Below, in pieces: positions 26,380 to 61,305 of a stretch of 64,000 nucleotides of DNA; position 1 is the first letter of the stretch; each line of letters opens with the position of its first letter. The translations under genes and the position numbers were made by a program. Source of the DNA: Octopus vulgaris. Taxonomy: Eukaryota. The notes under the pieces are model-generated. The model did not search any database and had not been told where the DNA came from. It saw only the letters and a program-made list of their open reading frames with translations. The stretch lies in contig OX597825.1 in assembly GCA_951406725.2 (NCBI GenBank), positions 17,174,001-17,238,000 on the forward strand. The letters run 5' to 3'.

Positions 26380-27592
26380 GTGTGTGTGTGTGTGCGTGCA
26401 CGCGCGTGTACTAACATGGCAGAACTGAAAACCAATTGACGAGGATATTCCGTTACTTTCTACAGGACTCACAATTGAAAATGGGAAGTACATTGCTTGG
26501 CAGAGATTGCAAGCCCAGGTTGGACATTCAATGATTATTATGCATCAAATGTATCGTTGTACAGCATTGTTATTGTTAGAATTTGTTGGATAGGGCTTTA
26601 TGAATGCATGCGCATAAAAATCTTCTTTGTTCTGGTTTCCACATATGTTGTAAATGTTAGAATTCGTGTCTGTCACTCATACTATTATAATTGTTCATGT
26701 GTCTGGTTTGTGGTTGTATGTGTATTTTAGTGTGTATACATGTTGGTATATGTTTGTGTTAATGTGTCCATGAATGTGTGTGCATGTGTGCATGCCTCTG
26801 GTGTGATATATTCTTGGTATAAATTGTGACGGTTTGTTTTTGGCATTCTCAAATATACAGGTAAGAAGACGAATAGCCAGTGGTGTGTGTGTTTCTATAA
26901 ATCGGTTGCTGTGGATCTGGATATTTAGGTCAATTAGTGTTAGAATAATTTTGTAGCGGTTCAGGAGTAGACACAGCAGATGTTTGGGTAATATCATCTA
27001 TGTATGAGTTCCCAGCTGTCTTTTTTTTTTTTTTGAGGTTTTATCTAGTAATTGCTATAAAACATTAATTATCATTCAAAATGATAATTAATGTTTTATA
27101 CGAATTCCTGGATAAAAATTATGATGAAAAGTTGAAAGTGTCAGATGATGAAAAAACTCCATTTACACATGAACTAGTAATATTTAATTTTTATTTTTCA
27201 GCTTTGCATTGATAGCAATCATTAATCATTTTGAACTCTAGATAGAAACGGAAACATTGAAATAATTCTACTAAAATTTATACTAACTAAAAACTATAAA
27301 ATTATACAGTTAGGTTATGAGCTTTCAACTTGAATAATGAGAAAAAAAATTATGATGTTCATAGTTACGTTGTGATACGTGCGAATTACAGCCGCATATC
27401 AAAAATGGCATGTCATATTTTTGGTGGAATTTAACAAAGCAGGATTTTGATAGACTGTAACAGCGTAGGAATTATCCATATTTTAGGATTAGAATATTTT
27501 GCTTAATGTGAAAAAGATATTTCCAGTTATAAAACAAATTATTCATGAAAGAACTCGAACGTTGTGTAAACAACGTAAACAGTCTTGAAATT

Positions 27593-27754
27593 ATTTACAT
27601 ATGCCCGTTGGCCATAGGGCGTAGTGGTTAAGAGCGCGGGCTACTAACCACCAAGATTCCGAGTTCGATTCCAGGCAGTGACCTGAAAAATAATAATAAT
27701 GATAATAATAATAATAACAACAATAACTATAATAACAATAAACATAACAATAAC

Positions 27755-27789
<35 letters not shown>

Positions 27790-27984
27790 TGATAATAATA
27801 ATAATAATAACAACAACAACAACAACAACAACATCGGAAAATACCTTAGGAATGAGAACCCGGGTTTGACATCTCCCCAAGACGCCTGATGAATGCTCGA
27901 GGGTATATCAGCCGAAACATTGTGTTAACAACACATAAAATGAGGACAAATATACGTCAAATGTAAATAATGTAAATAATGAAT
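27593..27984 (+). mobile_element. tRNA-derived SINE (family D) with (AAT)n linker, internal HHR and (AATGTAAAT)n tail
   Basis: 18-bp TSD GTAAACA(G/A)TCTTGAAATT at 27575-27592 and 27985-28002; A-box GGCGTAGTGG and B-box GAGTTCGATTCC in 27610-27683. Confidence 0.85.
27881..27926 (+). ncRNA. Type I hammerhead ribozyme (mutated) inside SINE
   Basis: GACGC-CUGAUGA-A-uGCU(c)GAggguauaUCAGCc-GAAAC-AUU-GUGUU; stem I GACGC/GUGUU; CA at the expected CG of ACGU is consistent with CpG decay. Confidence 0.65.
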
Positions 27985-28027
27985 GTAAACAATCTTGAAA
28001 TTGTCCCCACCAAAGTATATAACGAAT

Positions 28028-28250
28028 ACGAAGCGTACCAAAACGTTCGCGGATTAGATCTGTAACGCACCAATATTTGGAAGCACTCAGTTCCGTGCGC
28101 AGTAAGAGCTTGTAGTAACCTTCACGATGCAGTGTGCCGAGTGACCTCGCTGTGTTTAGTATGCACGCTGTGTAATTTGAGGGTTTCTAATCACATGTAA
28201 GATGTAGCCGACGATTTTCGTCATGAACAAGAAGCTGGAACAAATCACTG
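28028..28250 (+). mobile_element. Probable mariner 5' end fragment
   Basis: TACGAAGCGTACCAAAACGTTC resembles a mariner TIR; ends in MNKKLEQ-like start. Confidence 0.4.
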
Positions 28251-28262
28251 TCCTGATTGGAA

Positions 28263-28770
28263 ATACAATATTTTGAGGATTGAGATTTAGTAAGTTTAAT
28301 AAAGTACAAAACTCTGATCTCCATCAAAATAAGATCTAATTTCAAAGCACTTGTTTGTAGCGCAGCAGCCAATTTGTGAAAGCCCCATAGGAGTCCTTCA
28401 ATGTGTCCTCTTTCATCTTCTCCTTCAGCATTGGGGTACAACCGAATGTTAAAGGGAGCAAGTTCTGGAATGTAAGGAGAGCGACGGACAATTTTGATGC
28501 TCTTCTCTGTCATGTACTTGGTTATCATGATAGTATTGAGAACTAGAGCACTCTCTTGGCGCACAGGCATTGATCTTTTGCGATTCAATTTCTGCTTAAA
28601 ACCCCACACCCCAAAAAACGAACACAACGTATTTTTTGTTGACCATATGGCCAGAGGGAACCTAGTGTATGTAGGTGATGCATTTGCTGTCTCAAAAGAG
28701 GATCTTCATGAGCTTCTCTGCGGAATTGCTTTGCTTGGCCTCTTGTGCAAGCAAAAAATTCATTCTCGGT
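28263..28770 (-). pseudogene. Mariner transposase C-terminal remnant
   Basis: Minus-strand peptides EAKQSNSAEKLMKILF*DSKCITYIH*VPSGHMVNKKY and SPYIPELAPFNIRLYP match the mariner VPxGxTVN and YSPDLAPxDF motifs. Confidence 0.8.
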
Positions 28771-34735: not shown

Positions 34736-35560
34736 TATTTCTTTACTACCCACAAGGGGCAATACGCAGAGGGGACAAACAAGGACAGACAAAAGGATTA
34801 TGTCGATTACATCGACCCCAGTGCGTAACTGGTACTTAATTTATCGACCCCGAAAGGATGAAAGGCAAAGTCGACCTCGACGGAATTTGAACTCAGAACG
34901 TAACAGCAGACGAAATACGGCTATGCATTTCACCCGTCGTGCTAACGTTTCTGCCAGCTCGCCGCCTTAAAATATAATTTATATTCCATCAGAAGGAAGA
35001 AAAACAAAGCAGCGTTTATAAGTTTTGAACGCAGAAGATAATTGTACGTAACTATAGACCAACAGACATTAAAAATATACATTTCTTTACTACCCACAAG
35101 GGGCAATACCCAGAGGGGACAAACAAGGACAGACAAAAGGATGAAGTCGATTACATCGACCACAGTGCGTAACTGGTACTTAATTTATCGACCCCGAAAG
35201 GATGAAAGGCAAAGTCGACCTCGGTGGAATTTGAAATCAGAACGTATCGACAGACGAAATACTTATTTCTTTACTACCCACAAGGGGCTAAACACAGAGA
35301 GGACAAACAAGGACAGACGAATAGATTAAGTCGATTATATCGACCCCAGTGCGTAACTGGTACTTATTTAATCGACCCCGAAAGGATGAAAGGCAAAGTC
35401 GACCTCGGCGGAATTTGAACTCAGAACGTAACGGCAGACAAAATACGGCTACGCATTTCGCCCGGCGTGCTAACGTTTCTGCAGCTCGCCGCCCTCGACA
35501 GACGAAATACTGCTAAGCATTTCGCCCGGCGTGCTAACGTTTCTGCCAGCTCGCTGCCTC
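34736..35560 (-). mobile_element. Three family-B SINEs: one single, one with a nested same-family copy (35264-35494)
   Basis: Nested copy flanked by TCGACAGACGAAATACT at 35247-35263 and 35495-35511; flank 34970-35079 repeated at 35563-35651. Confidence 0.9.
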
Positions 35561-49439: not shown

Positions 49440-49947
49440 TTGTAAATAATCTTCGTAAAACAAAAATCCACAAAATTTTCCCGAGTAAGCATAATCCGAG
49501 TCCTTATGTGATCATCAAGTGGCAACCAGAACATGACTAGAAACCCCCAGACACGAAATAGCCCGGAGACAGCAGTTACTTGAAGGACGTCACCCATTTG
49601 AATGAAAAGAATGGTTTTCTGTGACTGCAGTGGCTACAAAAGATATCTCGAATATAGCCTGTACCAAATTATTCAACTGAATCCACTCGCAAAAAACGTC
49701 ATTGCTTTCCGATAAAATAAACAGTTTGTGTAAATCGGGAATATACAATACTCTCACTAACAAACCGGTCAGGCAACGGCTAGAAGAGCGGATAGAAATC
49801 ATCTGATTACTGGCAGGCATCAAACATGCCAAGACCTTTACTCATAACAGATCGACAAACACAAAAAAAACACACGAAAGCGCGCGTACACACACAAACA
49901 TGCGTGTATGTCTGTGTGTCTTTGTCAATATTATCCCTAAACCAACC

Positions 49948-50364
49948 TGTTTCTTTACTACCTACAAGGGGCTAAACACAGAGAGGACAAACAAGGACAG
50001 ACAAACGGATTAAGTCGATAATATCGACCCCAGTGCGTAACTGGTACTTATTTAATCGACCCCGAAAGGATGAAAGGCAAAGTCGACCTCGACGGAATTT
50101 GAACTCAGAACGTAGCGACAGGCTAAATACCTATTTCTTTATTACCCACAAAGGGCTAAACACAGAGGGGACAAACAAGGACAGACATAGGTATTAAGTC
50201 GATTACATAGACTCCAGTTCGTAACTGATACTTAAGTTATCGACCCCGATAGGATGAAAGGCAAAGTCGACCTCGGCGGAATTTGAACTCAGAACGTAAC
50301 AACAGACGAAATACAGCGAAGCATTTCGCCCGGCGTGCTAACGATTCTGCCACCTCGTCGCCTT
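49948..50364 (-). mobile_element. SINE family B dimer with a single TSD pair
   Basis: TSD ATT(A/G)TCCCTAAACCAACC at ~49930-49947 and 50367-50384. Confidence 0.9.
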
Positions 50365-60250: not shown

Positions 60251-60742
60251 AATTCCTTCTATATATATATATATTCATTCTCGCGAAGTTAATTCTCATG
60301 CTTGTGAGAAAATTACATCTTTGCCTAACACAAAACAGTTTATAGACATATGTCATGTCTAGTTCAGCCAACTCAATATGTTTTGATTACTTAATAAAAC
60401 CTTCGATACATAAGATGTGTTACAAATCATTCAAAAAAGTGAATGGCATAGATTTGAAAATCAGGTAACTGGTGTGTAATTGATATACTAAATGCAGTTC
60501 ACCAATGTATCCTAAGCTAATGACATTCTATTTAGAATGAAAAACGACACAATTAGGTTCATTAAAATTCATGTCATTTGTCCATTTGATTTATTCTTAG
60601 ATCTGATTAATTTCTGTTATTGTTCCGCATATCGAATTTTTGTCAAAATGGCTCGAAATAATTTTCTCATCACAGGTATTTTTCTCTAATACTTGCTATT
60701 ATATTATTTCAGTTAATACCAAAAATAAATGTTGTATAAGCA

Positions 60743-61305
60743 AAAAATGAGGAAGGAAGGAACCAGTGCACATATGAAGATCGCATGTGCGTGAAACTTA
60801 AATCGTGAGGAAAGGTAGTTCAAGAAATATCTATGTACTTGTATTTGAACTGTGGATGAACATAGGAGGGAAAAGAAGAAAGGAGAGGGAGAGTTCGACT
60901 ATTTGTGCGTGTGTGAAGCTAAAAATGAGGAAGGAAGGAATCAGTACACACATGAAGATCGCATGTGCGTAAAACTTAAATCGTGAGGGAAGGTAGTTCA
61001 CGAAATATCTATGTACTTGTATTTGAACTGTGGGTGAACATGAGAGGGAAAAGAAGAAAGGAGAGCGAGAATTCGACTATTTGTGCGTGTGTGAAGCTAA
61101 ATAGGAGGAAGGAAGGAATCAGTACACACATAAAGATCGCCTTTGCGTGAAACTTAAATCGTGAGGAAAGGTAGTTCAAGAAATATCTATGTACTTGTAT
61201 TTGAACTGTGGGTGAACGTGAGAGGGAAAAGGAAAAAGGAGAAAGGAGAGAGCGAGAGAGCGAGAGAAAGAGAGAGAGTTCGACTATTTGTGCGTTTGTG
61301 CAGCT
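60743..61305 (+). repeat. Tandem repeat, 3 x 178 bp
   Basis: AT(G/A)AAGATCGC at 60774, 60952, 61130. Confidence 0.95.

What the first reader, a model, noticed from the sequence alone, without database searches (positions are those of the whole stretch)
27593..27984. tRNA-SINE that carries a Penelope-type hammerhead ribozyme
Seen: one insertion defined by an 18-bp TSD contains a tRNA-like Pol III head (A and B boxes), an (AAT)n/(AAC)n spacer, a minimal type I HHR on the sense strand and an (AATGTAAAT)n tail. There is no T4 run between head and tail, so Pol III could transcribe it whole. Known: such HHRs typify PLE termini, while tandem-repeat tails and long TSDs typify LINE-mobilised SINEs. 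Inference: a chimeric ribozyme-SINE whose transcripts could cleave by dimerisation, limit their own retroposition, or pair in trans with PLE RNAs. I do not recall this architecture being described for cephalopods. This copy has two likely inactivating changes.
Basis: partly seen in the sequence, partly recalled or inferred. Interest (0 to 1): 0.8.

Follow-up and report, generated by a model that had tools for sequence, protein, structure and literature searches.

The report
Penelope retrotransposon with tRNA-derived promoter
This is not a SINE but a worn, shortened copy of the end repeat of a protein-coding Penelope-type jumping gene whose repeat begins with a tRNA-derived stretch; most short copies start right at that stretch, so the element likely used the cell's tRNA-copying enzyme (RNA polymerase III) as its promoter, an arrangement I did not find described for such an element.

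Summary
The anatomy is real: 18-bp TSD (17/18), tRNA-Arg-like head, (AAT)n spacer, minimal hammerhead. The reading as a LINE-mobilised SINE is wrong. The same head lies ~25 nt behind the stop codon of a Penelope-type RT/GIY-YIG-like ORF (27 of 30 ORF-end loci), and head, hammerhead and 'tail' run on into the next ORF in tandem copies. The 9-nt 'tail' repeat is coding sequence. Inverted 5' pieces and a one-sided 33-nt tail are Penelope signatures. ORF-linked and solo copies share the commonest letter at all 267 columns compared, so there is no separate SINE lineage. The new part: of 68 arms that reach the tRNA start, 56 end within ~20 nt of it, and the 2.6-kb sense strand has no T4 run, unlike 35 of 35 long control Penelope ORFs. 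This points to a Pol III promoter in the terminal repeat of an autonomous element (likely, untested) and possibly Pol III read-through of the whole unit (weaker). No RNA evidence was obtained. This copy has three damaging ribozyme changes and a damaged A box. The scan noted this family three times before on other DNA, as a short tRNA-headed element or SINE.

The parts
27575..27592 (+). left target-site duplication (18 bp, last 3 nt shared with the inverted tail piece)
   Evidence: 17 of 18 identical to 27985-28002
27590..27600 (-). 11-nt inverted copy of the element's short 3' end (Penelope-type inverted 5' piece)
   Evidence: sequence, position; same structure in many copies
27601..27609 (-). 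short fold-back copy of the element's start region
   Evidence: sequence; head-to-head fold-backs at the same point
27610..27686 (+). tRNA-Arg-like head = 5' part of the pseudo-LTR; A box 27617-27627 (first base mutated here), B box 27663-27672; predicted Pol III promoter
27689..27833 (+). (AAT)n/(AAC)n microsatellite spacer, very variable in length among copies
27852..27854 (+). ATG that opens the element's ORF in tandem copies (frame closed after 5 codons in this copy)
   Evidence: position; open through ribozyme and tail in natural copies L142, L143
27881..27926 (+). minimal type I hammerhead (stem I 27881-27885/27922-27926, core 27886-27892, stem II 27894-27913, predicted cut after 27921); three damaging changes in this copy
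27960..27984 (+). 9-nt repeats (coding Asn-Val-Asn in the ORF frame) and the 'short' 3' end; the 33-nt tail to the 'long' end is absent here
27985..28002 (+). right target-site duplication (first 5 nt match the tail unit)

Best explanation
[quoted passage not shown] Shown: the unit is ~2.6 kb, ORF (N-terminal domain, RT, GIY-YIG-like end) - stop - ~25 nt - tRNA-like head - (AAT)n - ATG - hammerhead - 9-nt repeats - 33-nt tail - next ORF. Shown: two 3' ends 33 nt apart, with the long end usually on one arm only; inverted 5' pieces; TSDs of about 12-18 bp; 5' ends piled at the tRNA start. Inferred: (1) TFIIIC/Pol III started RNA at about -7 to +1 of the tRNA-like sequence; (2) the element's RT/endonuclease nicked AT-rich DNA and began cDNA at the two internal sites, as the anole Poseidon protein does in vitro; (3) most cDNAs ran off the RNA's 5' end at the head, often folding back or switching template, which gives head-to-tail inserts such as this one; (4) longer-than-unit RNAs from tandem masters gave ORF-bearing copies, and if these too were Pol III products that would explain the lack of T4 on the sense strand; (5) the hammerhead can fold only as a dimer or with protein help, and a cut would separate the ORF from its ATG and promoter; it does not mark either end of the inserts.
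For: Head directly behind ORF stop in 27 of 30 ORF-end loci, hammerhead part in 26 of 30. Hammerhead/tail directly before the ORF start in 18 of 30 ORF-start loci, full series ORF end-head-hammerhead-ORF start in 4 of 30. RVT_1 E 5.8e-8; C-terminus aligns with PF01541-labelled homologs. ATG-to-ORF frame open in L142, L143; repeat length varies in steps of 9 nt in 66 of 70 copies. 3' ends: 84 short, 36 long, 5 long running into ORF, 52 unclassified of 177. One-sided tail: 31 short-forward/long-inverted, 20 long/short, 6 short/short, 2 long/long, Fisher P 1.4e-8; 76 had no inverted tail. These match PLE features in PMC8557442 (passages) and PMC11167929 (parts 1-2 of 4). TSD-like 12-16-nt matches in 27 of 90 copies vs 3 of 90 at control positions. 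5' ends of 95 position-ordered head arms: 27 inside the head, 56 at or abutting -12..+5 of the tRNA start, 12 going on into the ORF (11 by an independent motif test); stop rate about 0.07-0.10 per nt there vs 0.007 in the head and 0.0018 in the ORF. Exact 24-25-mers genome-wide: hammerhead 5,017, head 3' half 2,597, ORF end 491. 73 ORF-linked vs 121 solo heads: commonest letter differs at 0 of 84 head and 0 of 183 hammerhead/tail columns. T runs: 0 runs of 4 or more T among 2,863 column-majority letters (15 runs of 3; 30 A runs of 4 or more); chance of a fourth T after TTT 0.033 (7 of 209) in 12 natural copies vs 0.24 in 31 T-matched control PLEs; 101 control PLE ORFs show 693 T4 runs vs 643 expected, none of 35 with 590 or more codons has zero.
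Against: No RNA evidence: only assembled contigs of runs guessed to be RNA were available. A 5' pile-up marks an RNA start or an RT stop, not which polymerase made the RNA; D. virilis Penelope has an internal TATA-less promoter in the same place (PMC2377424, abstract and discussion), and a 4-bp hairpin sits at the pile-up. The copies descend from one or few masters, so T4 absence is a single observation: P 0.014-0.032 in 5 of 12 copies but 0.06-0.36 in the other 7 under synonymous-codon shuffles, and only P 0.08-0.17 under Markov nulls that keep TT/TTT frequency; shared variants had no power (0 of 45 one-step sites). Codon-level avoidance of TT is matched or exceeded by 3-6 of 72 controls and seen in some host LINE fragments; control L250 is T4-poor without a tRNA head. 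A and B boxes are no better conserved among copies than their neighbours (neutral decay). How an uncapped Pol III RNA would be translated is unexplained. The endonuclease had no direct Pfam hit. No intact ORF was seen; copies are 3.8-9.5% from the column majority.
Confidence: 0.7

Rival explanations
1. Same Penelope pseudo-LTR, but the tRNA-like stretch is a passive relic (an old SINE or tRNA pseudogene caught in the 3' UTR); RNA starts come from an ordinary Pol II promoter, or RT stalls at the small hairpin, and T4 absence reflects an A-rich, TT-poor strand.
For: Pol II-type internal promoter in D. virilis Penelope pLTR (PMC2377424); head profile weakly matches an abundant host tRNA-SINE head as well as tRNA-Arg genes; Markov null for T4 absence only P 0.08-0.17; hairpin at the pile-up (sequence).
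Against: The pile-up coincides with the tRNA +1 position, the geometry expected for an A/B-box promoter; both boxes match consensus in the column majority; drop in T-run extension is strongest at the fourth T (0.19, 0.17, 0.033 vs 0.25, 0.25, 0.24 in controls).
Confidence: 0.2
2. A true SINE: ORF-less head-to-tail copies became masters of their own and were mobilised in trans by the Penelope protein.
For: Solo copies outnumber ORF-linked ones about 5 to 1; each carries promoter boxes and one or both RT start sites; no T4 inside.
Against: No diagnostic column separates 121 solo from 73 ORF-linked heads; the anole protein needs the first 172 nt of the ORF (PMC11167929), and short-end solo copies hold only about 130 nt after the ATG; solo copies still alternate between both 3' ends, which needs a template with the tail.
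Confidence: 0.08
3. One reading: a chimeric tRNA-SINE with a borrowed hammerhead, ending in a tandem-repeat tail and mobilised by a LINE.
For: Long TSD, microhomology at the 3' junction and a repeat at the 3' end of this copy.
Against: The repeat is internal coding sequence followed by a fixed 33-nt tail and the ORF; inverted 5' pieces and one-sided tails; the ORF upstream is a Penelope-type RT/endonuclease.
Confidence: 0.02

Closest known systems
Poseidon from Anolis carolinensis (PAc) and other endonuclease-positive Penelope/Poseidon elements (PMC11167929 parts 1-2 of 4; PMC4209133 parts 1-2 of 4; PMC8557442 passages)
   Same: Single ORF with N-terminal domain, RT and C-terminal GIY-YIG-like endonuclease; partial-tandem pseudo-LTRs; inverted 5'-truncated pieces; 30-40-nt one-sided tail between two RT start sites; minimal hammerhead (short stem I, extra base before stem II, palindromic 15.2-16.2) overlapping the ORF start.
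   Different: The pseudo-LTR opens with a tRNA-derived A/B-box stretch at which most copies begin; the sense strand is free of T4. The parts I read mention no tRNA-derived promoter; D. virilis Penelope uses a TATA-less LINE-like promoter (PMC2377424).
TRIMp3 elements: Cassandra (5S), Helenus (tRNA), Ajax (5S) (PMC10886601, passages)
   Same: Small-RNA-derived Pol III promoter inside a terminal repeat of a retroelement.
   Different: Those are short non-coding LTR elements (311-1263 bp); the paper argues that their autonomous partners must use Pol II because Pol III is weakly processive. Here the promoter-like stretch is in the repeat of the coding element itself.
Schistosoma Sm-alpha / Sj-alpha SINE-like hammerhead repeats (PMC6765202, review passages; primary papers not read)
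   Same: Pol III promoter and type I hammerhead in one repeat.
   Different: Non-coding short tandem repeats liberated by ribozyme cleavage; here the ribozyme is minimal, lies inside an ORF start, and marks neither end of the inserts.
Animal non-LTR retrozymes (PMC7229834 passages; bioRxiv 10.64898/2026.07.22.740005 part 1 of 5 and passages)
   Same: Type I hammerhead, proposed origin from PLE pseudo-LTRs.
   Different: Retrozymes are short tandem monomers giving circular RNAs; this family is dispersed, ORF-linked and has a tRNA-like head (the preprint has no occurrence of 'tRNA' or 'promoter').

Membership tests
Endonuclease-positive Penelope-like element | single ORF with RT followed by GIY-YIG endonuclease | tested here: met
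   RVT_1 E 5.8e-8; C-terminus aligns with PF01541-labelled homologs, BLASTP E 2e-13; 72 homologs mostly with PF00078 and PF26215. No direct Pfam hit on the endonuclease.
Endonuclease-positive Penelope-like element | pseudo-LTR from partial-tandem arrangement | tested here: met
   18 of 30 ORF-start loci preceded by hammerhead/tail, 4 of 30 by ORF end, head and hammerhead
Endonuclease-positive Penelope-like element | inverted 5'-truncated piece at the 5' end | tested here: met
   50 of 95 head arms; 59 of 135 forward ends; 11-nt piece in this copy
Endonuclease-positive Penelope-like element | 30-40-bp tail on one side only | tested here: met
   two 3' ends 33 nt apart; 51 of 59 inverted insertions have the long end on exactly one arm, P 1.4e-8
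Endonuclease-positive Penelope-like element | minimal type I hammerhead in the pseudo-LTR | tested here: met
   column counts on 241 copies; 42 of 241 intact in core and both stems; no covariation, variation is mostly CpG decay; cleavage not tested
Penelope/Poseidon clade specifically | RT phylogeny with named reference elements | not tested
   tree holds only unnamed or uncharacterised homologs; the clade label rests on domain order and ribozyme position
tRNA-derived SINE | tRNA-derived head with A and B boxes | tested here: met
   tRNA set incomplete (10 isotype labels), so the Arg assignment is provisional
tRNA-derived SINE | transcribed by RNA polymerase III | not testable with these tools
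   no raw RNA reads; indirect signs only
tRNA-derived SINE | 3' end borrowed from a partner LINE, simple-repeat tail | tested here: not met
   3' part is the PLE's own ORF start
tRNA-derived SINE | non-autonomous lineage with its own masters | tested here: not met
   0 of 267 columns differ in commonest letter between ORF-linked and solo copies; minor solo masters not excluded
Non-LTR retrozyme | short tandem monomers each with a hammerhead | tested here: not met
   single copy here; fetched loci are mostly single or inverted pairs; short arrays not searched genome-wide
TRIMp3 (Cassandra, Helenus, Ajax) | true LTR pair, non-coding interior, 5-bp TSD | tested here: not met
   coding interior, TSDs about 12-18 bp; PBS/PPT not searched

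The most novel reading that the evidence does not exclude
An autonomous, protein-coding retrotransposon that replaced its Pol II promoter with a tRNA-derived Pol III promoter and purged every T4 terminator from its 2.6-kb sense strand, so that Pol III made the whole replication template (and perhaps the message), while the same promoter shed tens of thousands of SINE-like pseudo-LTR copies: a snapshot of how a SINE can arise inside an autonomous element.
Probability: 0.35. Interest if true: 0.85.

Novelty: new variant of a known kind. Interest (0 to 1): 0.6.

Why it matters
Autonomous retrotransposons are taken to be Pol II-transcribed, and a recent paper on Pol III-promoter LTR elements argues that coding partners must use Pol II (PMC10886601). 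A coding Penelope element with an A/B-box promoter at its RNA start and a terminator-free sense strand would be a natural counter-example and raises the question how uncapped RNA is translated and what the in-ORF hammerhead does. It gives sharp tests (5' RACE, Pol III ChIP, B-box mutants). Practically, tens of thousands of copies (estimate from exact-match counts) will be mis-annotated as tRNA-SINEs. If the head is only a relic, the finding reduces to an ordinary Penelope family.

Tried and rejected
Rfam (window at gathering; 16 loci at E<=10) and ARAGORN gave no hit on head or ribozyme. Pfam missed the endonuclease. Search for other PLE families in this genome with a distant homolog returned only this family in all 30 loci, so there is no same-genome PLE control. 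Metagenome scan with a single protein and viral scan found nothing. Among 101 control PLE loci none had an A+B box pair after the ORF; one (L230) had one ~480 nt upstream of the matched stretch; many had short flanks. Sequencing runs: no RNA holder listed, contigs only; four runs guessed to be RNA cover all 30 bins of a tandem copy with depth following copy number: no inference drawn. An empty orthologous site in related species remains unchecked. Test for T4 avoidance among shared variants lacked power. MFE folding of a natural intact ribozyme does not give the active monomer or dimer; a constrained dimer scored -17.7 vs -35.4 kcal/mol for the MFE dimer, stem I left out: uninformative. PDB search gave only remote RTs. 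Rejected: LINE-derived tail; separate SINE lineage; ribozyme cut as element end. Literature: nine searches listed no paper on a tRNA/Pol III promoter in a PLE repeat; most hits were seen as listings only; Repbase/Dfam and subscription journals were not searchable, and bioRxiv supplements were not visible.

Full report
Observation. The window holds one copy of the element. An 18-bp duplication with one mismatch frames it (27575-27592, 27985-28002). Inside lie an 11-nt inverted copy of the element's own 3' end (27590-27600), a short fold-back of its start, a tRNA-like head (27610-27686), an (AAT)n/(AAC)n spacer (27689-27833), a minimal hammerhead (27881-27926) and two 9-nt repeats. Rfam and ARAGORN call neither head nor ribozyme. 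Against 37 distinct tRNA sequences found in fetched loci, five of six heads match tRNA-Arg(TCG) best and one tRNA-Arg(TCT), 51 of 78 aligned positions for L048, and 0 of 200 shuffles reach the score in each case. A profile of 14 heads also weakly finds an abundant host tRNA-SINE head, so direct tRNA or SINE origin is open. In 241 ribozyme copies the commonest letters give the full core, a 5-bp stem I, an extra A, a 5-6-bp stem II and a loopless ACGU palindrome; 42 of 241 are intact throughout and decay is mostly at CpG. That is the minimal PLE hammerhead of PMC4209133 (parts 1-2 of 4 read). This copy differs from the column majority at 3 of 77 head and 13 of 133 ribozyme-region positions, including the first A-box base and three ribozyme-damaging changes.

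What it belongs to. Two of the first 30 loci had coding-like DNA directly before the head. Searching with that peptide, 27 of 30 loci have the head within 120 nt of the stop codon and 26 of 30 the ribozyme part further on. Longer copies give a ~2.4-kb ORF with RVT_1 (E 5.8e-8) and a C-terminus that aligns with GIY-YIG-labelled homologs, though Pfam did not hit it directly. At the other end, 18 of 30 ORF-start loci are directly preceded by ribozyme and tail, and 4 of 30 show ORF end, head, ribozyme and ORF start in series. In natural copies L142 and L143 the frame is open from an ATG 29 nt before the ribozyme, through it and through the 9-nt repeats, into the N-terminal domain; repeat length changes in steps of 9 in 66 of 70 copies. 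The 'tail' is therefore coding. The anole Poseidon likewise starts its ORF inside the ribozyme and begins reverse transcription at two internal sites that bound the tail (PMC11167929, parts 1-2 of 4). Here 3' ends fall into a short and a long class 33 nt apart (84 short, 36 long, 5 long into ORF, 52 unclassified of 177), and in inverted insertions the long end is on exactly one arm in 51 of 59 (P 1.4e-8; 76 further ends had no inverted tail), as drawn for PLEs in PMC8557442 (passages). TSD-like matches of 12-16 nt occur in 27 of 90 copies against 3 of 90 at control positions. 73 ORF-linked and 121 solo heads share the commonest letter at all 84 head and 183 ribozyme/tail columns (one CpG column differs in frequency, probably through how solo copies were sampled). 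The insert is thus a piece of the autonomous element, not a separate SINE.

The unusual part. Exact 24-25-mers number 5,017 for the ribozyme, 2,597 for the head's 3' half and 491 for the ORF end; at about 93% per-base conservation this suggests some tens of thousands of ribozyme arms (estimate). To locate the fivefold drop I took 90 stretches around the first 100 listed head matches (position order on contig C1), giving 95 arms. 27 end inside the head, 12 continue into the ORF, 40 end at -12..+5 of the tRNA start and 16 were called slightly further out but are inverted pieces abutting the same point; a motif test finds spacer or ORF end in only 11 of 95. The stop rate there is about 0.07-0.10 per nt, against 0.007 in the head and 0.0018 in the ORF (30 ORF-end loci). 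This is what an RNA 5' end at an A/B-box promoter would leave. It does not identify the polymerase: D. virilis Penelope has an internal TATA-less promoter in its pseudo-LTR (PMC2377424, abstract and discussion), and a 4-bp hairpin lies at the same spot.

T runs. Pol III stops at four or more T (PMC3141230, search listing, for human). Among 2,863 column-majority letters of 24 aligned copies (22% T) there is no T4 run, against 15 T3 runs and 30 A runs of four or more; 28 further copies hold 24 scattered T4 and one T5 in 54.7 kb. As control, 108 PLE loci from other organisms were fetched; 101 had 250 or more codons and show 693 T4 runs vs 643 expected; five have none, all of 521 codons or fewer; none of 35 with 590 or more codons has none. 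Chance of extending T, TT, TTT by another T is 0.19, 0.17, 0.033 in 12 family copies and 0.25, 0.25, 0.24 in 31 T-matched controls. Against this: the copies are one lineage; codon shuffles give P 0.014-0.032 in five of 12 copies and 0.06-0.36 in seven; Markov nulls give only 0.08-0.17 and shared variants had no power; TT-codon avoidance is equalled by 3-6 of 72 controls and some host LINE pieces; control L250 is T4-poor without a head. I rate this as suggestive.

Mechanism. Shown: unit structure, two 3' ends, inversions, TSDs, 5' pile-up, T4 absence. Inferred: Pol III start at the head; cDNA synthesis by the element's own protein from two sites behind the ribozyme; run-off, fold-back or template switch at the RNA's 5' end giving this 400-bp insert; longer-than-unit RNA from tandem masters giving ORF-bearing copies. 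The ribozyme marks neither end of the inserts; in the anole element it needs protein and is dispensable in vitro. A cut would sever the ORF from ATG and promoter. No RNA data bear on this: only contigs of runs guessed to be RNA were offered, and their depth along a tandem copy follows copy number.

Comparison and novelty. All defining PLE features tested are met; SINE membership fails on tail origin and lineage independence. Pol III promoters in terminal repeats are known for the non-coding Cassandra, Helenus and Ajax, whose describer argues that autonomous partners must use Pol II (PMC10886601, passages); Pol III plus hammerhead is known for schistosome repeats (PMC6765202, passages). Nine searches listed nothing on a tRNA-derived promoter in a PLE; passages of two cephalopod repeat papers (PMC13282606 with one supplement, PMC8967140), of PMC7229834 and of the retrozyme preprint (supplements not visible) do not mention it. 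Repbase and Dfam could not be checked. None of 101 control loci had A and B boxes after the ORF (many flanks short).

Verdict. New variant of a known kind. Identity as a Penelope pseudo-LTR copy is near certain; Pol III promoter function about 0.7; Pol III transcription of the whole coding unit about 0.35. Interest 0.6.

Noticed in passing
L003, L011, L013, L015, L056, L058 (LINE 3' ends); L002, L004, L018, L024, L025 (host SINE-like ends): The (AAT)n spacer is a landing pad: LINE 3' ends (R4/Dong-like by recalled resemblance; Pfam gave only zf-RVT) and other short repeats sit inside it, separating head from hammerhead.
   Followed up: partly
   Followed up: partly
L023:226-3076: Cluster of tRNA-Arg(TCG) genes (3 full, 1 partial) around a copy of this element.
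   Followed up: no
window 28190-28705, - strand: 172-codon stop-free stretch resembling a decayed Tc1/mariner transposase end (resemblance recalled; no Pfam hit).
   Followed up: partly
window 35081-35558, 49945-50314, 60738-61250: Tandem units of 184, 64 and 178 bp; the 184-bp units look like a host SINE body.
   Followed up: no
L250:165-1562 and L237:193-1611: Two control PLE ORFs from metagenomes are also T-run-poor (1 vs 5.6 expected; 0 vs 1.6) with no tRNA-like head seen after the ORF.
   Followed up: partly
L297-L324: Penelope-type ORFs inside bacterial genome bins, likely animal-host contamination.
   Followed up: no
L091:1788-2124: About 330-bp near-perfect palindrome (same translation on both strands).
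   Followed up: no
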